This document shows, one piece after another, positions 2,248 to 39,422 of a stretch of 64,000 bases of DNA; within the stretch, counting starts at the first letter, position 1, and each line of letters opens with the position of its first letter. Made by a program: the position numbers and the translations under genes. Below the pieces are notes generated by a model, which did not search any database, was not told where the DNA came from, and worked only from the letters and a program-made list of their open reading frames with translations. This DNA comes from Elusimicrobiaceae bacterium (GTDB lineage: Bacteria > Elusimicrobiota > Elusimicrobia > Elusimicrobiales > Elusimicrobiaceae), in the NCBI GenBank assembly GCA_045605325.1, contig JAZUPU010000032.1:1506-65505 (forward strand), written 5' to 3'.

Positions 2248-3171
2248 ATGACGTGGTATACTTACTTAATTTTCCCGATAATTGGTTTTATCGGTATGCT
2301 ATGCGGCGGTTTTTGGAGCGTCGGCTGCGGTTGGCTTATAGTGCCCACAATGCTAATTTTCGGGTTTGAACCTTTGGAAGCAGTCGGTGCGGCATTGGTG
2401 CAAATGGTATTTTCAACAGCACCGACAATATTAAAAGAAATGCCAAAACTTTCTTGGAAAAAATATTCAATTATGCGTTCTTTGGCTTTACCTATGGCAA
2501 TAGGTGTTGTTTTAACCGCTTTCAGCGGCCGCTTGATAAATGATTATTTGTATAATAAATTCGGTTCAAAAGCTCTGCTCTGCTTATTTGTTTTTGTAAT
2601 GCTTTTTATCGGCTTTCAAAGTTTATTCGGTAAGACAACAAAAAATCAAAATGAAGAACCGAATATTTCAAAATTACAAAGTATAGTTGCACTTTTTTGC
2701 GGAATGTTTGTTGGGGTTATAAGTTCGGTGCTTGGCATAAGCGGTGCTTTAGTTTTTAGACCGATAATAATAAACGGTTTTAAAATTGCTGAGAAACCGG
2801 CAACGCAAGCAGTACGCTTTTTGCTTTTAGTTGCGACAATAAGCGGCTCTATATTTTACTTATTTTCCGGTGGCAAATTCCATACAAATATTTTATTTTT
2901 AGGTGCACTTATTGCACTTGGCGGGGCTTTCGGTTTTCCGCTTGGGGTTAAATACGGAAGTATAGTTTTAAAAAACGGTTATGTTAAATTTTTACAAAAA
3001 AGTTTTGGTAGCATAATTTTAATAATCATCACGAATGCGATTTTAAATTTGCTTAATTTTGTTGCTTTTAGCCGTTATTTAATGATAATTTGTGCAATAG
3101 TTTTATTTACCGGTATAAATATATTTACTTTTTACGCTGCAAAACATCCGCAGTCAAACTCACAAAATTGA
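2248..3171 (+). CDS. TSUP (TauE/SafE, DUF81) family membrane transporter
   Basis: 307 aa, about 8 predicted TM helices, Gly-rich repeated halves typical of TauE/SafE permeases. Confidence 0.6.
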   Translation: MTWYTYLIFPIIGFIGMLCGGFWSVGCGWLIVPTMLIFGFEPLEAVGAALVQMVFSTAPTILKEMPKLSWKKYSIMRSLALPMAIGVVLTAFSGRLINDYLYNKFGSKALLCLFVFVMLFIGFQSLFGKTTKNQNEEPNISKLQSIVALFCGMFVGVISSVLGISGALVFRPIIINGFKIAEKPATQAVRFLLLVATISGSIFYLFSGGKFHTNILFLGALIALGGAFGFPLGVKYGSIVLKNGYVKFLQKSFGSIILIIITNAILNLLNFVAFSRYLMIICAIVLFTGINIFTFYAAKHPQSNSQN

Positions 3172-3228
3172 TATAATTTATTATAGCTTTAGGGCTAAAC
3201 AATTTGCTGTTTTTGGGGGCATTTGCCG

Positions 3229-3348
3229 CCTTCTTTTAGAAGGAATTCCAAACCAAAAATAGCCGTTTTATCTTTTGTTTTTTATTAAACAAAAGATAGC
3301 GGCTGTTTATTTGAGTGCTTGGAATTCCTCAAATAACAGCCGTTTTTT
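3229..3348 (+). promoter_or_regulatory. Leader with a long antiterminator-like hairpin competing with a terminator; short variant of the leader family at 9712 and 34204
   Basis: Outer arms ggaattccaa (3242-3251) / ttggaattcc (3319-3328), with inner arms atcttttgtt / aacaaaagat and agccg / cggct. Alternative terminator cggctgtttatttgag / ctcaaataacagccg followed by T6 (about 3300-3348). The terminator sequence is homologous to that of copy A. Confidence 0.4.
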
Positions 3349-3369: not shown

Positions 3370-3483
3370 ATGAAAGAAATATTAATATTATTTTGTTTTT
3401 TTGCAGTTATGTTTTTGGCTTTTTATTCTGTATATTTAATTGCTAAACACGACAGAGAAAAGAATAAAATAAGGTTTAAGTAA
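3370..3483 (+). CDS. Possible 37-aa single-TM small protein (MKEILILFCFFAVMFLAFYSVYLIAKHDREKNKIRFK)
   Basis: GGAG at 3361-3364 lies 5 nt before the ATG. Hydrophobic helix plus a basic tail. Sits directly downstream of the switch-like leader and is below the ORF-track length cutoff. Confidence 0.35.
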   Translation: MKEILILFCFFAVMFLAFYSVYLIAKHDREKNKIRFK

Positions 3484-9711: not shown

Positions 9712-9971
9712 TGCTATAATAAAGTATAAGTTGTAAAAGGAGTTTTAAAATTATGTAGGGTTTAAAACCCTAAAAAATTTAATCTGTTTTTGGCCCGCAA
9801 TGGCGGGATGTTAATAGAAATATTAACGCATATAGATGCCAAGAACAGTCGTTAAGGCACATAATGGTCTGGTTGATCCCCTTACTGTTATGTGCTGAAT
9901 GTTTGTCAGTAGACAAACTACGGCTGTTTTATTTAGGATCATCTATATGCCCAAAATAATCAGCCGTTTTT
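9712..9971 (+). promoter_or_regulatory. Extended -10 promoter plus a roughly 245-nt structured leader RNA with antiterminator/terminator switch (copy A)
   Basis: TGcTATAAT at 9712-9720. Helices 9758-9770, 9794-9807 and 9810-9827 (GAAA loop). P1 is 9828-9840 / 9936-9950 and the junction helix is 9844-9852 / 9920-9928. Hairpins at 9857-9895 and 9901-9918. Terminator cggctg (9921-9926) / cagccg (9961-9966) + T5. Covaries with copy B. Confidence 0.55.
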
Positions 9972-10006: not shown

Positions 10007-10447
10007 ATGTATAATATTGATGAAAAAATAAAAGATTTTACCGAACTGATTAAACAAAGGCCCGATATAAACGAACTTTATATTGAAAGAGCTAAACTTT
10101 ATTACGCAAAAGGGCAATATAAAAAAGTAGCCGAAGATTTTATAAAATCATTATCAGTTTATTATGACCTTATTGATATAAAAGAAGTATGTGAAAAAAA
10201 TAATCTAATTAAAGAGGCCGAATATTTTTATACCAAAGAAATAAACAAAAATAAAAATGATATTAATGCGTATATGGGCCGTTTGCATTTTTATATACGC
10301 AACGAGCAAATAGAAAAAGCAATTTTAGATTGTAAAGCAATATTAAAACTTTCCCCGAAAGATGAAACTATATTAGCACTTCGTAAAATATTAACCAGCC
10401 GCGAACCGCCTTTAAAAATGCGTAAAGGAGATTGGGTTATACGGTAA
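10007..10447 (+). CDS. TPR-repeat protein
   Basis: 146 aa with TPR-like helical repeats (YIERAKLYYAKGQYKKVAEDF, YMGRLHFYIRNEQIEKAILDCKAIL). The SD AGGAGG lies 15 nt upstream, which is long spacing. Confidence 0.55.
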   Translation: MYNIDEKIKDFTELIKQRPDINELYIERAKLYYAKGQYKKVAEDFIKSLSVYYDLIDIKEVCEKNNLIKEAEYFYTKEINKNKNDINAYMGRLHFYIRNEQIEKAILDCKAILKLSPKDETILALRKILTSREPPLKMRKGDWVIR

Positions 10448-10500
10448 ATTATCAATTATCTGCCCTTTAAAATTCGGCAAGTATTTTAAGAAAAGTTTTT

Positions 10501-10572
10501 ATCCCCCATCCGTCAAGCAAAATGAAAAACATTTTGCTTGCCACCCTCCGCCCGTCCACGACGGGTGAGGGC
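10501..10572 (+). repeat. GC-rich double-hairpin repeat, family 2
   Basis: atcccccatccgtc + hairpin caagcaaaatg/cattttgcttg + hairpin ccctccgcccgtc/gacgggtgaggg. Near-identical to 34097-34167. Confidence 0.6.
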
Positions 10573-10618
10573 AACAAGGAAAGCAAATTTAATAAAGCCA
10601 AATAATGCGCACAATCTG

Positions 10619-21435: not shown

Positions 21436-24414
21436 TTATTTTAGAATATCACCAAGCATTTTAATGTAAGCACTCGGTTTTTTGATATCTTCAAAATTTA
21501 TAGTACCGCAACGAATCATCATAACTTCTAACATATGGGATAAAATGTCATAGAAATTATTTCTGATAGGTTCTTTGCATTCCAATAAAGAAGGACCTAA
21601 AATAATGGCGCCTTTTAAACCTTTTAAATCACAAATATTGGCTATTTTAAAAGCAGATGAAATGATATGCTCCGTTGAATAAGCAGATTTTAAAGCATAA
21701 TTAAAACCGCCTCTTATACCAAGTTCTTTTGCCGCTTCCTGAGCAGCAAAAGCAACCCAACGGAATTTATCTATTTGGGAAGTCGGGAAGAAGAAACCAA
21801 AACTCCCCCAAGTATTTTCTTTATTTTTTTCCAAAGATATTACATCAGAAAAATCTTTCTTTACTATTTCACTTTCCTGATTTTCCCCTTCTACCGCTGT
21901 CATTACTTTTAATAAATCTTCGTAAGACATTTTCTTTATTCCGCTACTTTCAATACGGCGTGATAAAACTTTTACCCTCTTAACATTTGTTGCAACTTCA
22001 CCCAAAGATTTGTTTTGTCCTGTAAAAAATTCCTGAATTTGATTATCCGTTAAATTTAAAACAGAATTGGTTACTAGTTTATTTGTTAATTTCGCAAAAT
22101 TATCTTTACCGGGAACTTTAACTTCGGCAATAGTTCCGATAGAAAATTTAAAATTAACTAATTCCTCAAACCTTTTTAAACTTTCAGGAGGATATTTTGA
22201 AGATAAAATAATCTGTTTTTTATTCTGTAAAAAATCATTTAAAACTTTTGATATATATTCCCTGTTATGTTCATTTACGGCTGTTAAATGTACATCATCA
22301 ACAATTAATACTTCAGCATTATTAAAGAATTCATCTAATTTATCTTTTTTACCTCTTTCTAATAAATATTGTACACCCCTTGAAAGGCGCACACCGTTTG
22401 TAAATAAAATTTTAGCTTGAGGTATTTTTTTAGAAATTTCATAACCCATAGCATTTAAAAAATGTGTTTTACCGGTACCGCTTTCCCCTTGCAAAAGGAA
22501 AGGATTATTTGTTGTTCCTAAATTATCTAATGTTACCATTGCCATAGCATGCGCAAAACGAATAGAAGAAATATCCATATTAGCAAAAGTATAAGTAGGA
22601 ATTAAGGGCATTTCTATCGGATAATTTTTATATTTTGTTTCTTTTGAAGGCGTAGCGACATGTAATGTATGGTCTATCTTCTCTTTATTTCCAGTAATGT
22701 TTTGATGATTATTTTGTATTTTATTAAACATATTTTGTTTTGGTGTTTGCATATTTTCCCCTTCTCCTTTTTCAACAATTTTCGCGGTTGTTCCTGCCAT
22801 CTCTTTTTTAGGTTCAACCTTTGAAAATTCCTGTTTATTTTTTGAAATTGCTCTTGACTCTTTTATACTCACTATACGAAATGATTTTTCTTTGTTCTCC
22901 TGTTTATTTTCTTTTTTTACTGCTTCTACTGCAGATACTTTTTTATTATCCGATACTGCTTCTATCCTATTTTGATTATGGAAATTATTTTCTGTTTTTG
23001 GTTTAACATTTTTAGTTTCTGTTTTAATATTGTTTTGTGTAAAAATTTGTGCCGGGGAAGTTAATTCTTCTATCCCTTGACTATTAGCAAAATTTTCCTT
23101 TTTAGGCAAAATATTACTTTGTAACGAATCAGAAGAAATGTCTTCTCTAGATAACGGTTTTTGTTCTTTTGGTAATACTGTATTTTCCAATTTATCCAAG
23201 GGGCTTGTTCCTTTGACTCTATCAGAATTTATTTTTTTATTTTTTTCTTCAGGTTGATCTGCATAAAATTCACATACGGTTTCAGCATTAAAAATATCAT
23301 CAACTTGCAATTTAGCTGTTAAAGAATTGCTTGTTAAATCTTCTTTCATTTGTTTTTTTGTTTCTTCACTTAATTCCTCAGGGTTCAAAAGACCTTTTTT
23401 AACAATAATACCGCTTCCTAAATTTTGGAAAGGGTTCTCTTTTTCTTGTACAGGTTGTTCTGCGGTATTTTGTTTTTTAGGTTCTTCAGATGTTAAATCT
23501 TGAATAAAATTTTCTTTAACTTTACTTTCTTGTCTAAGTAAAGATGAAAAATTTTGTTGTTCGTTTTGTTTTAATTCTTCCGGTTTTGCTTTTTGTTCAA
23601 TAGGTTTATTGTGTTTTATTACTGATTTTATTTTACCGAACATATTTTTCAAGAAGCCCTTATTTTCAGGTTCTACTGTAATAGAAACATCTTGTATCTC
23701 TTCAGGGGAAAAAGAAACAACAGTTTTATTTTCTTCTACGGATGTCTTGTGTTCTTGTGTAGGAATTGCAGGGGTAATTGATTCCTGTTTTAAATTTTCT
23801 TCTTGTTCCGGCTTTTTTATCTCTGAAAACGTTTGAGCTATTTTTAGAGGTTCTCCTTCAAGTGATATTTTTGTTTCACCGTCAGAAATTTTATTGTTAA
23901 CAAATAAGTTATCAAAAGAAGTATCTTCACTTTCTTTATCTATATTAAAACCTGTTTTTGCAAGAGATAACGCCGGAATACTAACCCCACTTTTTTGTTG
24001 TTCCTCGGAAAGATTAGTTTGCTCATTAACGGTATTAACGAATATATCTTCCGGGGTATAATCTTTTTTAAAATTTGTAAAGGTTTTGTTTATTTGTGGG
24101 ATATTAGTTAAGGGATTTTCCTCAACTGTAAAAGTAGATGTTTTTAAAGCATTACCGAAAGTTTGTGTTTCACCTTGAAAAGTAGATGAAAGTGTCTCTA
24201 ATCTATACCTAACTTTTTCAAGCATAGAATTGTCAGTGATACCTGATAATTCAAAAACATAATCAAAACCTTTAACTTTTACATTTATTAATTTACAAAA
24301 ACCGGAAAGACCTTGTTTTACATCTTCACAACCCTGCAGATCTGCTTTTAATAAAAGTAAAAAAATAGAATTTTTTGTTAAAGTATTTTCTCTTATCTCA
24401 TAATTATCTATCAT
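21436..24414 (-). CDS. Large protein with a DnaA-domain-III-like AAA+ module, a long E/K/Q/N-rich disordered region and an unknown C-terminal domain
   Basis: 992 aa. Residues of roughly 620-800 align with the window's own DnaA: NPFLLQGESGTGKTHFLNAMG vs [28 protein letters not shown] vs LLIDDIQ, KKQIILSSKYPP vs QKQIVLTCDKTP. No DnaA domain IV motif was seen. Confidence 0.6.
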   Translation of the reverse strand: MIDNYEIRENTLTKNSIFLLLLKADLQGCEDVKQGLSGFCKLINVKVKGFDYVFELSGITDNSMLEKVRYRLETLSSTFQGETQTFGNALKTSTFTVEENPLTNIPQINKTFTNFKKDYTPEDIFVNTVNEQTNLSEEQQKSGVSIPALSLAKTGFNIDKESEDTSFDNLFVNNKISDGETKISLEGEPLKIAQTFSEIKKPEQEENLKQESITPAIPTQEHKTSVEENKTVVSFSPEEIQDVSITVEPENKGFLKNMFGKIKSVIKHNKPIEQKAKPEELKQNEQQNFSSLLRQESKVKENFIQDLTSEEPKKQNTAEQPVQEKENPFQNLGSGIIVKKGLLNPEELSEETKKQMKEDLTSNSLTAKLQVDDIFNAETVCEFYADQPEEKNKKINSDRVKGTSPLDKLENTVLPKEQKPLSREDISSDSLQSNILPKKENFANSQGIEELTSPAQIFTQNNIKTETKNVKPKTENNFHNQNRIEAVSDNKKVSAVEAVKKENKQENKEKSFRIVSIKESRAISKNKQEFSKVEPKKEMAGTTAKIVEKGEGENMQTPKQNMFNKIQNNHQNITGNKEKIDHTLHVATPSKETKYKNYPIEMPLIPTYTFANMDISSIRFAHAMAMVTLDNLGTTNNPFLLQGESGTGKTHFLNAMGYEISKKIPQAKILFTNGVRLSRGVQYLLERGKKDKLDEFFNNAEVLIVDDVHLTAVNEHNREYISKVLNDFLQNKKQIILSSKYPPESLKRFEELVNFKFSIGTIAEVKVPGKDNFAKLTNKLVTNSVLNLTDNQIQEFFTGQNKSLGEVATNVKRVKVLSRRIESSGIKKMSYEDLLKVMTAVEGENQESEIVKKDFSDVISLEKNKENTWGSFGFFFPTSQIDKFRWVAFAAQEAAKELGIRGGFNYALKSAYSTEHIISSAFKIANICDLKGLKGAIILGPSLLECKEPIRNNFYDILSHMLEVMMIRCGTINFEDIKKPSAYIKMLGDILK

Positions 24415-33750: not shown

Positions 33751-33828
33751 TTAGTCAAAAATTTGCGTGATTTTTTAAAAAGTTTCCCCCCTCTTTTTTG
33801 ATTTTTCAAATTTGAGGGGTTATTTTTT

Positions 33829-33857
33829 GCCTGTTTTTGCGTAAAAACGGGCTTTTT
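33829..33857 (+). terminator. Probable terminator downstream of the M3 peptidase
   Basis: gcctgttttt-gcgt-aaaaacgggc (one G-U pair) followed by TTTTT. Confidence 0.5.
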
Positions 33858-33870
33858 GCGCTAAAATCGG

Positions 33871-34167
33871 CTCAAATTTTGATTTTTGTTTAAATTCAAA
33901 GCAGTTTATCGTTTTTTAAAAACAAATTAAAATTTGGGCAGTTTTTATTTGATTTTGATTTTTTACGACGGAGAATTTAAAAAAGTCCTTATTGTCGCCA
34001 CCCGTATGCCTTGTCATACGGGCGGGAGATGCTGAGCAAGGGCAGTTCTTGCGAAGCAGAGGGGGGATCAATAAGGAAATAAAATAGGAAAACCTTATCC
34101 CCCATCCGTCAAGCAAATAAAAAGCCATTTGCTTGCCACCCTCCGCCCGTCCACGACGGGTGAGGGC
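33871..34167. repeat. Mosaic of short family-1-like palindrome and family-2 GC-rich hairpin modules
   Basis: aaattttgatttttgttt ... aaacaaattaaaattt; cacccgtatg..catacgggcg; ggggggat..ccttatccccc. The canonical family-2 unit then occupies 34097-34167. Confidence 0.55.
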
Positions 34168-34203
34168 TATACGGAAAATTTTTACAAATTTACCTTTAAA
34201 ATA

Positions 34204-34475
34204 TGATATACTTTAAAAAACGAAAGGAGTGTTTTTATTTTTTAATGTAAGCCGATAACGGCTTAATACAATTTAATCTGTTTTTGGCCCGTAACGACGG
34301 AGAGTTAATAGAAATATTAACGCATATAGAAACCAAAAACAGTCGTATGGGCACAAAGCAAGAGGATTAATTACCCTCTTACTTTGTGCTTAATGTTTGT
34401 TATCGCAAGATAATAAACTACGACTGTTATGTTTTTGGTCTTTCTATATGCCCGAAACACAATAGTCGTTTTTTT
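34204..34475 (+). promoter_or_regulatory. Extended -10 promoter plus a roughly 260-nt structured leader RNA with antiterminator/terminator switch (copy B)
   Basis: TGaTATACT at 34204-34212. Same helix order as copy A, with compensatory substitutions. Terminator stem cgactgttatgtttttgg / ccgaaacacaatagtcg followed by T7 (ends 34475). Confidence 0.55.
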
Positions 34476-34494
34476 ATTTAGAAAAGGAGAAATT

Positions 34495-35034
34495 ATGAAA
34501 GAAAAACAAAAAATTATAAATAAAAAATTCACTAAAGGTTTTACCCTATTAGAACTTTTAGTTGTAGTATTAATTATCGGAGTTCTTGCTGCTATTGCTT
34601 TGCCGCAATATAATATGGCAGTAGCAAAAAGTAAATATAATACTATAAAAACAATGACGGAAGATCTAGTTTCATCAGTAGAGAGATATTATTTAGCAAC
34701 AAACACTAAACCTACGAACTTGGAAGATTTGGACATAGAGATAGAAGGAGAATATAAAAATAATTCTAAATTAAGAAAAATTTTACCAAACGGAGCAGAA
34801 TGCGGTTTCAATTATGGTACAGATGATTTTCAAGAAATTGTATGCATCACTAAAGTAAACGGTAAAACCATGTATTACCTGAGTACTTTTTATTATAAAA
34901 TTTCTAAACAAGAAAGACTTTGCTACGCTTCTACTAATATTACAGATATTACCAATAAATTATGCCAAATCGAAACAGGAAAAAATTCACCAACATCTTC
35001 TTGTCAAAGTTATTATTGTCCGTACGAATATTAA
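34495..35034 (+). CDS. Prepilin-type N-terminal methylation-domain protein (pilin/pseudopilin-like), paralog 3
   Basis: Start at MKEKQKIINKKFTKGFTLLELLVVVLIIGVLAAIALPQY with SD AAGGAGA. The ORF-track start at 34429 lies inside the leader terminator. Confidence 0.85.
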   Translation: MKEKQKIINKKFTKGFTLLELLVVVLIIGVLAAIALPQYNMAVAKSKYNTIKTMTEDLVSSVERYYLATNTKPTNLEDLDIEIEGEYKNNSKLRKILPNGAECGFNYGTDDFQEIVCITKVNGKTMYYLSTFYYKISKQERLCYASTNITDITNKLCQIETGKNSPTSSCQSYYCPYEY

Positions 35035-38054: not shown

Positions 38055-39422
38055 GTGCGGAAAGTGGAAAACAACGATATAAACGAAATTTGGGCTAAAT
38101 TACTGGAAAAGTTAGAAATAACTTTAGGTAAAGACACTTGCGATATGTGGCTTAAGCCCATGAAAATTGCGGAATTTAATGAAGGTGTTTTTAAACTTGA
38201 AGTTCCTAATAATGCTTGGCTTAAAACAATTAAAGACCGTTATGAAACTCCTATTTTACACGCTTTAACAGAAATTACAAATTTTCCTTGCACCGTTGAT
38301 TATATTATTCAAAAACAAGAAGAACCGCAGGTTTTTAAAGCACCTCCGATAGTTGTTCATCAAAATTACGGCAGGCAAACTTCTAGGGAAGAAAGTAAAC
38401 TTGATCCTCATTATACTTTTGAGGGTTTTATTGAAGGTCCTTCAAACCGATTTGCTTATAAAGCGTCTGAGGCAGTAGTAAAAAAAATCGGTAACCGTGC
38501 AAATAACCCTTTTGTAATTTTCAGTGCACCGGGGCTTGGTAAAACTCATCTTTTGCACGCTATCGGTAATGAACTTTTAAAAAATAACCCTTATGCAAAA
38601 GTTTTATATATGTCGGGAGAAGATTTTTTTACTCAATGTATAGACCATATGGCAAAAAAATCAACCACACCTTTCCATAAACAATATGAAAATATTGATT
38701 GTTTACTTATTGATGATATACAATTTTTAGTTGGTAAAAACAGATCTGAAGAAGAATTTTTTTATACCTTTAATTCCTTATTTAATAATCAAAAACAAAT
38801 TGTTTTAACTTGTGATAAAACACCAAACCAACTTGAATTCAGTGAGCGTTTATCTTCCCGCCTTTTAAGTGGAATTTCAGCCGAAATTAAACGCCCGGAT
38901 TTGGAAACAAGGATTGCAATTTTACGTCATAAAAGAGATTTAAATAATTATGATATTTCAGATGATGTTTTATCTTTTATAGCGCAAGGTGTACAGGCAA
39001 ATATTAGGGAACTTGAAGGGTGTTTATATCGTCTTACAGCTTTTGCAAGTATACACGGTGTAACAGCAACCGTTAATATAGCCAAAGAAGTTCTTGCTGA
39101 TATTATAAATTTAGATCAACAAAAATATAATATAAGTATTAATAAAATAAAACAAGTTGTTTGTAAACATTTTAAAGTCAATTTAGAGGACTTAAATTCT
39201 AAAAAGAAAAATAATTCTATTGCTTGGCCCAGACAAATTGCTATGTACCTTGCAACGGAATTAACATCTTTATCTTTACCTGAAATCGGGAGGGAATTCA
39301 ATAGGGACCATACCACAATTATTCACGCTAAAGAAAAGGTAAAAGAAGAAATTAAAAATAATACCTTTTTTATCCCTGTTATTAACTTGATAACAGAGGA
39401 AATAAAAGCTGGGGATAATTAA
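38055..39422 (+). CDS. dnaA: Chromosomal replication initiator DnaA
   Basis: 455 aa. Motifs GLGKTHLLHAIG, LLIDDIQFL, a sensor/box VII region and the domain IV motif DHTTIIHA. The start is GTG at 38055 or GTG at 38064. Confidence 0.95.
   Translation: MRKVENNDINEIWAKLLEKLEITLGKDTCDMWLKPMKIAEFNEGVFKLEVPNNAWLKTIKDRYETPILHALTEITNFPCTVDYIIQKQEEPQVFKAPPIVVHQNYGRQTSREESKLDPHYTFEGFIEGPSNRFAYKASEAVVKKIGNRANNPFVIFSAPGLGKTHLLHAIGNELLKNNPYAKVLYMSGEDFFTQCIDHMAKKSTTPFHKQYENIDCLLIDDIQFLVGKNRSEEEFFYTFNSLFNNQKQIVLTCDKTPNQLEFSERLSSRLLSGISAEIKRPDLETRIAILRHKRDLNNYDISDDVLSFIAQGVQANIRELEGCLYRLTAFASIHGVTATVNIAKEVLADIINLDQQKYNISINKIKQVVCKHFKVNLEDLNSKKKNNSIAWPRQIAMYLATELTSLSLPEIGREFNRDHTTIIHAKEKVKEEIKNNTFFIPVINLITEEIKAGDN

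What the first reader, a model, noticed from the sequence alone, without database searches (positions are those of the whole stretch)
34204..34475. Same structured leader, copy B, controlling a pseudopilin gene
This second full copy has the same helix order and about 70% identity, with the substitutions concentrated in paired positions. Its terminator is stronger than in copy A. The stem cgactgttatgtttttgg / ccgaaacacaatagtcg is about 17 bp with two mismatches and is followed by T7. The 3' strand of P1 (tttctatatgc) lies in the terminator loop.

The downstream gene is a prepilin-type protein, unrelated to the TPR protein behind copy A. The leader therefore looks like a portable regulatory module that puts different surface or unknown-function genes under one signal. 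The ORF-track entry starting at 34429 begins inside this terminator, so the real start is 34495.
Basis: seen in the sequence. Interest (0 to 1): 0.7.

Follow-up and report, generated by a model that had tools for sequence, protein, structure and literature searches.

The report
New pilin-gene attenuator RNA in Elusimicrobia
The flagged stretch is a real, strongly conserved folded RNA leader, absent from the RNA family database, that sits in front of pilin and other surface-related genes in gut and rumen Elusimicrobia and can fold either into a transcription stop signal or into a competing read-through structure; what flips it is unknown.

Summary
Window 34204-34475 holds an extended -10 promoter and a ~255-nt structured leader ending in an intrinsic terminator, 19 nt upstream of a type IV prepilin gene (34495-35034).

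It is 73-74% identical to copy A (9778-9971). I found a third, shorter copy C (3203-3348).

No Rfam 15 family matches the window or 20 homologous loci. Collection scans and a covariance model gave 66 copies (63 distinct with three later additions) in Elusimicrobiaceae MAGs and rumen or gut metagenomes. Of these, 43 precede pilin genes.

Covariation supports every hairpin. It also supports two mutually exclusive states:
- P1 (CUGUUUUUGG/CCAAAAACAG) plus the terminator.
- A long antiterminator, in which the P1 3' strand and the variable strand L pair with the terminator 5' arm and the terminator loop (L').

The two states are close in predicted energy.

It is therefore a new family of terminator/antiterminator/anti-antiterminator leaders. 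The effector is unknown, and there is no conserved junction core typical of a metabolite pocket.

Two further features stand out: self-complementary hexamers in the P4 loop (33 of 50), and a 5' Shine-Dalgarno plus AUG-stop mini-ORF (18 of 58).

The parts
34204..34212 (+). Extended -10 promoter TGATATACT of leader copy B. The inferred transcription start is near 34219-34220.
   Evidence: Read from the sequence. TGnTAnnnT lies at a comparable position in 33 of 57 homologues, and another -10-like hexamer in 14 more. The promoter scan tool did not call it because there is no -35 box.
34223..34250 (+). 5' Shine-Dalgarno-like AAAGGAG (34223-34229), then AUG-UAA (34245-34250), a start-stop mini-ORF. 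The stop codon opens hairpin P0.
   Evidence: An SD-like box is present in 41 of 58 homologues, SD plus AUG in 21, and AUG followed directly by a stop in 18.
34248..34265 (+). P0 hairpin (UAAGCCG AUAA CGGCUUA).
   Evidence: A hairpin is present at this position in 55 of 57 homologues, with 52 distinct sequences.
34272..34287 (+). Conserved single strand UUUAAU followed by seg1 CUGUUUUUGG (34278-34287), the 5' strand of P1 (anti-antiterminator).
   Evidence: 100% of cells paired with seg2. Every change among the 60 distinct sequences is on the seg2 side and gives G.U. Part of this invariance is ascertainment bias from the search pattern. P1 differs in L062, L059 and L056.
34289..34300 (+). P2 hairpin (CCGU AACG ACGG).
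   Evidence: All 6 modelled pairs change on both sides across the family; 94.5% of cells are paired.
34304..34321 (+). P3 hairpin, 7 bp with a GAAA tetraloop.
   Evidence: All 7 pairs change on both sides; 90.8% of cells are paired. GNRA-type loops are common.
34322..34331 (+). Strand L (GCAUAUAGAA). It is the junction strand of the P1-P2-P3 three-way junction in the terminator state, and pairs with L' in the antiterminator state.
   Evidence: All 10 L:L' pairs change on both sides, with 3-6 pair types each.
34333..34346 (+). seg2: CCAAAAACAG (the P1 3' strand) plus UCGU. It pairs either with seg1 or with seg3.
34349..34391 (+). P4 hairpin. Its 9-nt apical loop AUUAAUUAC (34366-34374) contains a self-complementary hexamer.
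   Evidence: 13 pairs covary. A 6-nt Watson-Crick palindrome is in the P4 loop of 33 of 50 homologues, and a 4-nt palindrome in 10 more. There are none of 6 nt in the P2, P3 or P5 loops; 3.3 are expected from shuffled loops.
34395..34418 (+). P5 hairpin, 10 bp with a GCAA tetraloop and a conserved GUUU/AAAC base.
   Evidence: 10 pairs covary; 95.3% of cells are paired.
34420..34438 (+). seg3: the terminator 5' arm, which is also the 3' strand of the lower antiterminator helix.
   Evidence: One seg3 position pairs with a seg2-flank position (U.G 26, C-G 20, U-A 5) and with a seg4 position (G-C 45, A-U 5), so both partners are maintained.
34442..34451 (+). L' (UUCUAUAUGC) in the terminator loop, the partner of L.
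34452..34475 (+). seg4: the terminator 3' arm (34452-34469) and the U7 tract (34469-34475).
   Evidence: -17.8 kcal/mol. The terminator helices have 15 of 17 pairs changed on both sides in the MAFFT alignment (12 of 17) and 16 of 17 in the model-fitted alignment.
34484..35034 (+). SD AAGGAG (34484-34489) and the prepilin-type gene (AUG 34495, stop included). The product is 179 aa, MKEKQKIINKKFTKGFTLLELLVVVLIIGVLAAIALPQY...
   Evidence: Pfam N_methyl, E = 1.1e-7. A 100% identical 179-aa database protein exists.
9778..9971 (+). Leader copy A (147 bits), upstream of the TPR-like gene 10007-10447.
3203..3348 (+). Leader copy C (65 bits). It is a reduced version with one middle hairpin, promoter TGATATAAT at 3169-3177 and P0 at 3184-3197. 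A 37-aa hydrophobic ORF follows at 3370-3483.

Best explanation
Copy B is one member of a previously uncatalogued family of cis-acting transcription-attenuation leaders.

Shown:
- Each copy has its own promoter, a 5' hairpin P0 and four switching segments.
- seg1 and seg2 form P1, which closes a three-way junction with hairpins P2 and P3.
- seg3 and seg4 form an intrinsic terminator just upstream of the ribosome-binding site of a small monocistronic gene, usually a type IV pilin-like protein.
- Alternatively, the junction strand L plus seg2 pair with seg3 plus the terminator-loop strand L'. This makes one long antiterminator helix capped by hairpins P4 and P5.
- Both states are kept by evolution, and they are close in predicted energy.

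Inferred:
- seg3 is transcribed before seg4, has a 4-nt toehold next to seg2, and gains 10 further pairs from L:L'. The antiterminator should therefore form during transcription unless P1 is held shut. That would make the default state read-through.
- My committed guess is that an effector stabilises the P1-P2-P3 junction (the anti-antiterminator), leaves seg3 free for seg4, and switches the gene off.
- The junction strands are not conserved. The effector is therefore more likely a protein, another macromolecule or a global physical input than a metabolite.
- The direction of the switch and the identity of the effector are not shown.
For: Family membership:
- The covariance model finds copies B, A and C in the window at 168, 147 and 65 bits, and 66 copies overall.

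Structure:
- Terminator state on the unbiased MAFFT alignment: 89.8% of cells paired against 78.1% in shuffles, 376 double-change cells against 119, and 38-52% paired when partners are slid.
- Antiterminator state: 86.2% against 69.5%, and 543 double-change cells against 178. All ten L:L' pairs covary.
- Model-fitted alignment: 94.5% paired, and 52 of 63 pairs have compensatory changes.
- One seg3 position keeps pairing with both of its alternative partners.

Bistability:
- The difference E(antiterminator) - E(P1 + terminator) has mean +7.7 kcal/mol. The terminator state is the minimum-energy fold in 44 of 51 members. For window copies A and B the antiterminator is lower by 1.5 and 4.5 kcal/mol.
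- The distant relative in L056 has a different P1 sequence. At full length it folds as P1 plus terminator; truncated before seg4 it folds as the antiterminator.

Position:
- The leader is on the same strand as the downstream gene and usually 19-50 nt upstream of its SD. Of 63 distinct leaders, 43 precede pilin genes.
Against: - There is no expression data, so condition-dependent termination is not shown.
- P1 is invariant in the main sample, so it carries no covariation there. That sample was selected with a pattern containing P1. Support for P1 rests on perfect complementarity, G.U-only changes, and the altered but still complementary P1 in L056.
- No conserved junction or loop core was found that would mark a binding site, so the effector part is a guess.
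- In most members the terminator state is the thermodynamic minimum. The default could therefore be termination, with an activator needed instead.
- The energies come from nearest-neighbour predictions with alignment-derived constraints, and are too pessimistic for the antiterminator in misaligned members.
Confidence: 0.72

Rival explanations
1. A classical small-molecule riboswitch, for example for a nucleotide second messenger that governs surface or adhesion lifestyle. The ligand would bind the P1-P2-P3 junction and act as an OFF switch.
For: - The layout is the standard OFF-switch design: the P1 3' strand plus a junction strand form the antiterminator with the terminator 5' arm.
- The regulon consists of pilins, glycosyltransferases and membrane proteins. 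From my own knowledge, this is the kind of gene set that c-di-GMP and cGAMP riboswitches control elsewhere.
- P3 often has a GNRA loop, and the fold is large and ornate.
Against: - Outside the switching segments almost no nucleotide is conserved at 90% or more. J1/2 is AA in about 75%, and J2/3 has one G in 67%.
- The long junction strand L is free to vary and covaries only with L'. Known aptamers keep a conserved junction core.
- There is no Rfam hit, including the c-di-GMP-I and -II, cGAMP and ppGpp classes.
Confidence: 0.2
2. Ribosome-dependent attenuation. A ribosome loaded on the 5' SD and AUG (a start-stop or short leader ORF) remodels P0 and seg1 and so decides between P1 and the antiterminator.
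For: - An SD-like box is in 41 of 58 leaders, SD plus AUG in 21, and AUG-stop in 18.
- In two leaders a 9-10 codon ORF stops at the UAA of the conserved UUUAAU just before seg1. In L001b the ORF runs through seg1.
Against: - 17 of 58 leaders, including window copy C, have no SD-like box, and 20 more have no AUG.
- In the start-stop form the AUG is about 32 nt upstream of seg1, beyond a ribosome footprint (own knowledge of footprint size).
- There are no regulatory codons.
Confidence: 0.08
3. The terminated transcript of about 250 nt is itself the functional product, a stable and possibly dimeric small RNA. Read-through into the downstream gene would be incidental.
For: - It has its own promoter and a strong terminator.
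- The terminator state is the minimum-energy fold in 44 of 51 members.
- The self-complementary P4 loops suggest RNA-RNA association.
Against: - The leader is on the same strand as the downstream gene and, where this was scored, usually 19-50 nt from its SD.
- The L:L' and seg2:seg3 pairings, which only make sense as an antiterminator, are maintained by covariation.
- About a third of members add an SD-sequestering hairpin whose 5' side repeats seg2. This ties the leader to expression of the gene.
Confidence: 0.08
4. A passive element with no signal: a fixed-efficiency partial terminator that sets the level of each pilin, or a repeated or mobile promoter cassette.
For: - There are many copies per genome at unrelated loci (three in 64 kb here).
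- No conserved effector-binding core was found.
- The energy gap between the two states differs between paralogues, which could tune expression levels.
Against: - Five covarying hairpins and two balanced alternative folds are more than a leaky terminator needs.
- I noticed no terminal inverted repeats or target duplications at the copies I read, but did not search for them.
- The copy next to parB is syntenic across species (L002, L062), so it is inherited vertically rather than hopping.
Confidence: 0.07

Closest known systems
Bacillus subtilis pyr operon attenuators (PyrR-dependent; own knowledge)
   Same: The logic has three layers: an anti-antiterminator, an antiterminator and an intrinsic terminator, placed in the 5' leader. 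Several copies are under one regulator.
   Different: There is no match to the PyrR binding-site model or to any other Rfam family. Here the anti-antiterminator closes a three-way junction, the antiterminator is about 25 bp and carries two extra hairpins, and no PyrR-like binding loop is conserved. The genes controlled are pilins, not pyrimidine biosynthesis genes.
OFF-type transcriptional riboswitch expression platforms such as purine, SAM-I and FMN (own knowledge)
   Same: The P1 3' strand and an adjacent junction strand are shared between the sensor domain and an antiterminator. That antiterminator competes with a downstream terminator.
   Different: There is no conserved ligand-pocket core. 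The shared junction strand L varies freely. No ligand is known.
c-di-GMP-II riboswitch upstream of Clostridioides difficile pilA1 (papers listed; own knowledge)
   Same: A leader RNA with a terminator controls a type IV pilin gene.
   Different: The fold is unrelated. The c-di-GMP-I and -II covariance models do not match, even at E <= 10. The phylum is different.
HIV-1 dimerisation initiation site kissing loop (own knowledge)
   Same: The P4 apical loop is typically 9 nt: 2 unpaired, a 6-nt self-complementary core, then 1 unpaired. Different lineages carry different palindromes: UAAUUA, UCAUGA, UUAUAA, UCUAGA and UUCGAA.
   Different: The cores are AU-rich and weaker. Dimerisation is not tested. 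The context is a bacterial leader rather than a retroviral genome.
5' stabiliser SD sequences (STAB-SD of cryIIIA) and start-stop mini-ORFs in E. coli leaders (own knowledge)
   Same: An SD-like box lies a few nucleotides from the 5' end, in 18 leaders followed by AUG and an immediate stop.
   Different: It is present in only part of the family. Its function here is untested.

Membership tests
Any Rfam 15 family (including c-di-GMP-I/II, T-box, PyrR site, ppGpp, preQ1) | Score at or above the family's gathering threshold with its covariance model | tested here: not met
   There were 0 matches in the whole window. Only chance-level hits at E >= 0.097 appeared in 33800-34700 at E <= 10. In 20 homologous loci only rRNA and tRNA matched.
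Intrinsic-terminator attenuator (terminator / antiterminator / anti-antiterminator leader) | A G+C-containing hairpin followed by a U tract, directly upstream of the regulated ORF on the same strand | tested here: met
   The hairpin at 34420-34469 is predicted at -17.8 kcal/mol and is followed by U7. The AUG is 19 nt downstream. This arrangement is conserved in the family.
Intrinsic-terminator attenuator (terminator / antiterminator / anti-antiterminator leader) | A mutually exclusive antiterminator pairing that uses the terminator 5' arm and is maintained in evolution | tested here: met
   All 10 L:L' pairs covary. seg2:seg3 is 94% paired in its proximal part. The antiterminator structure has 543 double-change cells against 178 in shuffles.
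Intrinsic-terminator attenuator (terminator / antiterminator / anti-antiterminator leader) | An anti-antiterminator that sequesters the antiterminator 5' strand | tested here: met
   P1 is 100% paired in 60 distinct sequences, with G.U-only changes. A different but complementary P1 occurs in L056. Caveat: the main sample was selected with a pattern containing P1.
Intrinsic-terminator attenuator (terminator / antiterminator / anti-antiterminator leader) | Condition-dependent termination in vivo or in vitro | not testable with these tools
   No transcriptome or biochemical data are available here.
Metabolite-binding riboswitch | A core of highly conserved unpaired nucleotides in junctions or loops that forms the ligand pocket | tested here: not met
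   Nucleotides conserved at 90% or more lie almost only in seg1-seg4, plus A and U in J4/5. J1/2, J2/3 and L are variable.
Metabolite-binding riboswitch | Direct, selective ligand binding that changes the fold | not testable with these tools
   Needs in-line probing or similar.
Leader-peptide (ribosome-mediated) attenuator | A leader ORF whose translation overlaps segment 1 | tested here: not met
   In 18 leaders the ORF is AUG-stop, about 32 nt upstream of seg1. Only 3 leaders have an ORF that reaches seg1, and 37 of 58 have no SD plus AUG.
Kissing-loop dimerisation element | A self-complementary core of 6 nt in an apical loop, flanked by unpaired nucleotides | tested here: met
   33 of 50 P4 loops have a 6-nt palindrome (five or six different hexamers), and 10 more have a 4-nt palindrome. 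There are 0 of 6 nt in the P2, P3 and P5 loops; 3.3 are expected by shuffling. Whether dimers form is not testable here.
Type IV pilin / pseudopilin (downstream gene) | An N-terminal prepilin cleavage/methylation motif followed by a hydrophobic helix | tested here: met
   PF07963 N_methyl, 31.5 bits against a cutoff of 21.2, at residues 14-36.

The most novel reading that the evidence does not exclude
This is a new class of RNA sensor, not just an attenuator. It would respond to an as yet unknown cellular signal, either a second messenger or a dedicated RNA-binding protein. It would act as a loop-loop (P4) homodimer and co-ordinate a dispersed regulon of dozens of pilin and surface genes across Elusimicrobia.
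Probability: 0.25. Interest if true: 0.8.

Novelty: new variant of a known kind. Interest (0 to 1): 0.63.

Why it matters
- Elusimicrobia are a poorly studied, mostly uncultured phylum. From my own knowledge, their genomes carry unusually many pilin-like genes of unknown role.
- A single conserved leader in front of most of these genes defines a regulon. It gives an experimental handle on when the cells make these surface filaments.
- For RNA biology it adds a well-supported, about 200-nt, five-hairpin family to the list of orphan cis-regulatory RNAs.
- The switch anatomy is unusually clear, because both alternative folds are supported by covariation.
- Two features are rare in bacterial leaders: a lineage-variable self-complementary loop that suggests dimerisation, and a start-stop mini-ORF at the 5' end.
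- Finding the effector could reveal a new signal or a new RNA-binding regulator.

Tried and rejected
1. Rfam at gathering and at permissive thresholds, on the window and on 20 homologous loci: nothing relevant.

2. A viral-contig scan with the first pattern: 0 hits.

3. The genome scan hit in an Omnitrophota MAG (L003) lies inside coding-like sequence and lacks the other elements. I treated it as the expected chance match.

4. I first thought seg1 (UUUAAUCUGUUUUUGG) was invariant and therefore a sequence-specific binding site for a trans factor.
   - Copies reached through pilin homology rather than through the DNA pattern show CAGUUUUUGG (L062), CUGUUUUUUGG (L059) and a wholly different P1 (L056).
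   - Much of the invariance is therefore ascertainment bias.

5. A search of the window for an RNA complementary to seg1 plus its flank gave chance-level hits only.

6. The seg2-like CCAAAAAC repeat between terminator and SD, which could let free seg1 open an SD-sequestering hairpin, is present in only about a third of members. It is absent from copies A, B and C, so it is not part of the core mechanism.

7. Three full-text searches and term look-ups in two large motif-discovery papers found no earlier description. They contain no mention of pilin or Elusimicrobia.

8. Exact look-up of the window pilin in the contig index failed twice, so the source record is not named.

Full report
**What is at the coordinates**

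Window 34204-34475 (+ strand) reads as follows:
- An extended -10 promoter, TGATATACT (34204-34212).
- An SD-like AAAGGAG (34223-34229).
- AUG-UAA (34245-34250).
- Hairpin P0 (34248-34265).
- The single strand UUUAAU, then seg1 CUGUUUUUGG (34272-34287).
- Hairpin P2 (34289-34300).
- Hairpin P3 with a GAAA loop (34304-34321).
- Strand L, GCAUAUAGAA (34322-34331).
- seg2, CCAAAAACAG plus UCGU (34333-34346).
- Hairpin P4 (34349-34391).
- Hairpin P5 with a GCAA loop (34395-34418).
- seg3 (34420-34438).
- Strand L', UUCUAUAUGC (34442-34451).
- seg4 (34452-34469).
- U7, ending at 34475.

The pilin gene starts at 34495 behind AAGGAG. Its product has the Pfam N_methyl motif and equals a 179-aa database protein.

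The RNA folds far better than shuffles, with z = -11.3.

- Copy A (9778-9971) is 72.9-74.2% identical.
- The terminator of B is stronger than that of A: -17.8 against -13.6 kcal/mol.
- The strand in the terminator loop is complementary to the strand after P3.
- Substitutions are not concentrated in stems: 28 of 121 paired columns differ, against 22 of 73 unpaired. However, 12 of the 18 altered pairs remain paired, 8 of them by double changes.

**More copies in the window**

A profile search and a covariance model built later find a third, reduced copy C at 3203-3348 (65 bits) and nothing else in the window. Copy C has its own TGATATAAT promoter. It is followed by a 37-aa hydrophobic ORF at 3370-3483.

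All three copies lie among housekeeping genes near the replication origin. These include mfd, thymidine kinase, topA, parAB, dnaA and gyrB. Each copy precedes one small gene.

**Relatives elsewhere**

No Rfam 15 family matches the window or 20 homologous loci.

A degenerate DNA pattern found two rumen Elusimicrobiaceae MAGs in the genome collection, plus one chance hit.
- L002 is syntenic with copy B.
- L001 carries two copies. The second has completely different P3, L:L', P4, P5 and terminator sequences, yet keeps every pairing.

A second pattern, anchored on seg1 and seg2, returned 52 metagenome loci.

Model R1 scores 66 copies at 64-189 bits. Nine of them do not contain the search pattern.

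Going through pilin homologues instead of DNA patterns gave three more:
- L062, syntenic, 131 bits.
- L059, 111 bits.
- L056, 41 bits with filters off.

Other pilin genes, in L061 and L062, have no such leader.

**Structure and covariation**

| Measure | Terminator state, MAFFT | Antiterminator state, MAFFT | Terminator state, model-fitted |
|---|---|---|---|
| Cells paired | 89.8% | 86.2% | 94.5% |
| Cells paired in shuffles | 78.1% | 69.5% | 76.3% |
| Cells paired with partners slid | 38-52% | 37-46% | 41-50% |
| Double-change cells | 376 | 543 | 613 |
| Double-change cells in shuffles | 119 | 178 | 151 |

- The MAFFT alignment has 51 distinct leaders and is not fitted to any structure.
- The terminator state comprises P1, P2, P3, P4, P5 and the terminator.
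- The antiterminator state comprises P2-P5, L:L' and seg2:seg3.
- All ten L:L' pairs show changes on both sides, with three to six pair types each.
- In the model-fitted alignment, which leans towards the model, 52 of 63 pairs have compensatory changes.
- One seg3 position keeps pairing with both alternative partners. With the seg2 flank it forms U.G 26, C-G 20 and U-A 5. With seg4 it forms G-C 45 and A-U 5.
- L:L' (10 bp) sits in a 13-nt terminator loop, with 1-3 nt linkers. It therefore cannot coexist with the full terminator stem. This last point is my inference from pseudoknot geometry.

The true anti-antiterminator P1 is seg1:seg2.

**Energetics**

Constrained folding shows that the two states are close in energy.
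- The terminator state is the minimum in 44 of 51 members.
- The mean gap is 7.7 kcal/mol. It is inflated by members whose L:L' columns are misaligned.
- The antiterminator is lower by 1.5 kcal/mol in window copy A and by 4.5 kcal/mol in copy B.

The distant L056 leader has a different P1 (GAUUAUUUUAUGG / CCACGAAAUAAUUAUC). It folds as P1 plus terminator at full length, and as the antiterminator when cut before seg4.

**What it controls**

Of 63 distinct leaders:
- 43 are followed within 450 nt, on the same strand, by a gene with the prepilin motif.
- 5 cannot be scored.
- 15 precede other genes. These are TPR-like proteins (copy A, L012, L025), GT8 and GT2 glycosyltransferases, an EcoRI-like adenine methyltransferase, a SHOCT-domain membrane protein, a Gly-rich protein, and 30-37-aa membrane peptides (copy C, L051).

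The set is dominated by surface or envelope functions.

**How it probably works**

Shown: there are three mutually exclusive pairings in the order 1:2, 2:3 (extended by L:L') and 3:4, with a U tract after segment 4. This is the anatomy of a transcription attenuator with an anti-antiterminator.

Inferred:
- P1 forms first.
- seg3 can invade it from the 4-nt toehold YCGU:ACGR.
- L' then locks the antiterminator before seg4 is made.
- The untreated outcome should therefore be read-through, and an effector that stabilises the P1 three-way junction would cause termination.
- The opposite polarity is possible, because the terminator state is the thermodynamic minimum in most members.

The effector is unknown.
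- Nucleotides conserved at 90% or more lie almost only in the four switching segments. Those segments are constrained by having two partners each.
- J1/2, J2/3 and L are variable.
- This does not look like a metabolite pocket. I therefore rank a protein, another macromolecule or a global input above a small ligand, with low confidence.

**A hypothesis I dropped**

In the pattern-selected sample seg1 never changes, and all P1 variation is on the seg2 side, giving G.U. That suggested sequence-specific recognition of seg1. The pattern-independent copies contradict it. Nothing complementary to seg1 exists elsewhere in the window.

**Unusual features**

1. The P4 apical loop.
   - It carries a 6-nt Watson-Crick palindrome in 33 of 50 leaders: UAAUUA or AUUAAU, UCAUGA, UUAUAA, UCUAGA or UUCGAA.
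   - It carries a 4-nt palindrome in 10 more: GAUC, AGCU, GGCC or AAUU.
   - No P2, P3 or P5 loop has a 6-nt palindrome, and shuffled loops predict 3.3.
   - The usual loop is 9 nt, arranged 2 + 6 + 1. From my own knowledge, this is the layout of the HIV-1 dimerisation loop.
   - Paralogues in one genome often differ. In the window, copy A has GAUC and copy B has UAAUUA.
   - This points to loop-loop homodimerisation, which is untested.

2. The 5' end. An SD-like box lies near the 5' end in 41 of 58 leaders. AUG follows at proper spacing in 21, and an immediate stop follows in 18. It may load a ribosome as a 5' stabiliser, or it may take part in control. It is absent from copy C and from many other members.

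3. The region after the terminator. About a third of members repeat seg2 (CCAAAAAC) between the terminator and the SD, within a CUCC...GGAG hairpin. Free seg1 could open this hairpin. It is absent from the window copies.

4. P0 is present in 55 of 57 leaders, with 52 different sequences.

**Comparison with known systems**

- In logic the closest is the PyrR-type anti-antiterminator / antiterminator / terminator leader, together with OFF-type riboswitch expression platforms.
- In biology the closest is the c-di-GMP-II riboswitch before C. difficile pilA1.
- None of these families matches by covariance model.
- The defining feature of metabolite riboswitches that could be tested, a conserved pocket, is not met.

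I therefore file it as a new family that uses a known principle.

**Limits**
- There is no expression or binding data.
- The main sample is biased by the search pattern.
- E-values from R1 are rough.
- The taxonomic range is known only from two named MAGs, from synteny, and from the rumen or gut origin of the contigs.
- Novelty rests on absence from Rfam 15 and from three full-text searches plus two motif-catalogue papers. It does not rest on an exhaustive literature review.

Noticed in passing
window 3203-3348 (+), ORF 3370-3483: A third, reduced copy of the leader (65 bits, one middle hairpin instead of P4 and P5) with its own TGATATAAT promoter. A 37-aa hydrophobic ORF follows (MKEILILFCFFAVMFLAFYSVYLIAKHDREKNKIRFK). 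A similar small ORF follows the leader in L051.
   Followed up: partly
window 34366-34374 (copy B P4 loop), about 9870-9876 (copy A P4 loop), and the P4 loops of homologues: The apical loop of P4 contains a self-complementary hexamer in 33 of 50 leaders and a tetramer in 10 more. Different lineages, and different paralogues in one genome, carry different palindromes. Other loops have none of 6 nt. This suggests kissing-loop dimerisation.
   Followed up: partly
window 34223-34250; window 9738-9760 (copy A): An SD-like box near the 5' end of the transcript, followed by AUG and an immediate stop codon that opens hairpin P0. This start-stop form is present in 18 of 58 leaders. Three others have short ORFs that reach the conserved UUUAAU or seg1.
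   Followed up: partly
window 33990-34175 (+); partial copy at window 10499-10582; L001 4-162; L002 5957-6185; L016 about 2197-2232: A second repeated, G+C-rich structured element with the core UAUCCCCCAUCCGUCAAGC...GCUUGCCACCCUCCGCCCGU-loop-ACGGGUGAGGGCAAUAAGGAAA. It lies just upstream of the copy B promoter and just after the copy A gene. In L001 it lies directly upstream of a leaderless pilin gene, and in L016 between leader and pilin. The GCCCG/CGGGU hairpin covaries. There is no Rfam hit. It may be another pilin-associated RNA or a terminator-like repeat.
   Followed up: partly
L004, L006, L009, L011/L039, L014, L023, L034, L047, L049, L052 and others, between the terminator and the start codon: About a third of family members carry a second copy of seg2 (CCAAAAAC...) right after the terminator, flanked by CUCC that pairs with the gene's SD. 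In the read-through state free seg1 is complementary to it. This would add translational control. It is not present in the window copies.
   Followed up: partly
window 21436-24414 (-) and 38055-39422 (+): There are two DnaA-ATPase-domain proteins in the window: a canonical 455-aa DnaA next to parAB and gyrB, and a 992-aa protein with a DnaA/IstB-like ATPase domain in its C-terminal half. A homologue of 1165 aa is present in the syntenic locus L062.
   Followed up: no
L013/L031, downstream of the leader: In one lineage the leader precedes an EcoRI-like adenine-specific DNA methyltransferase (Pfam E = 1e-133). This is an odd member of an otherwise surface-related regulon.
   Followed up: no
L001 5573-5680: The pilin gene behind the divergent second leader of L001 has an in-frame stop right after the conserved ...GIALP motif (ttaccgTAAtatcaa). 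This is either a pseudogene or an assembly error.
   Followed up: no
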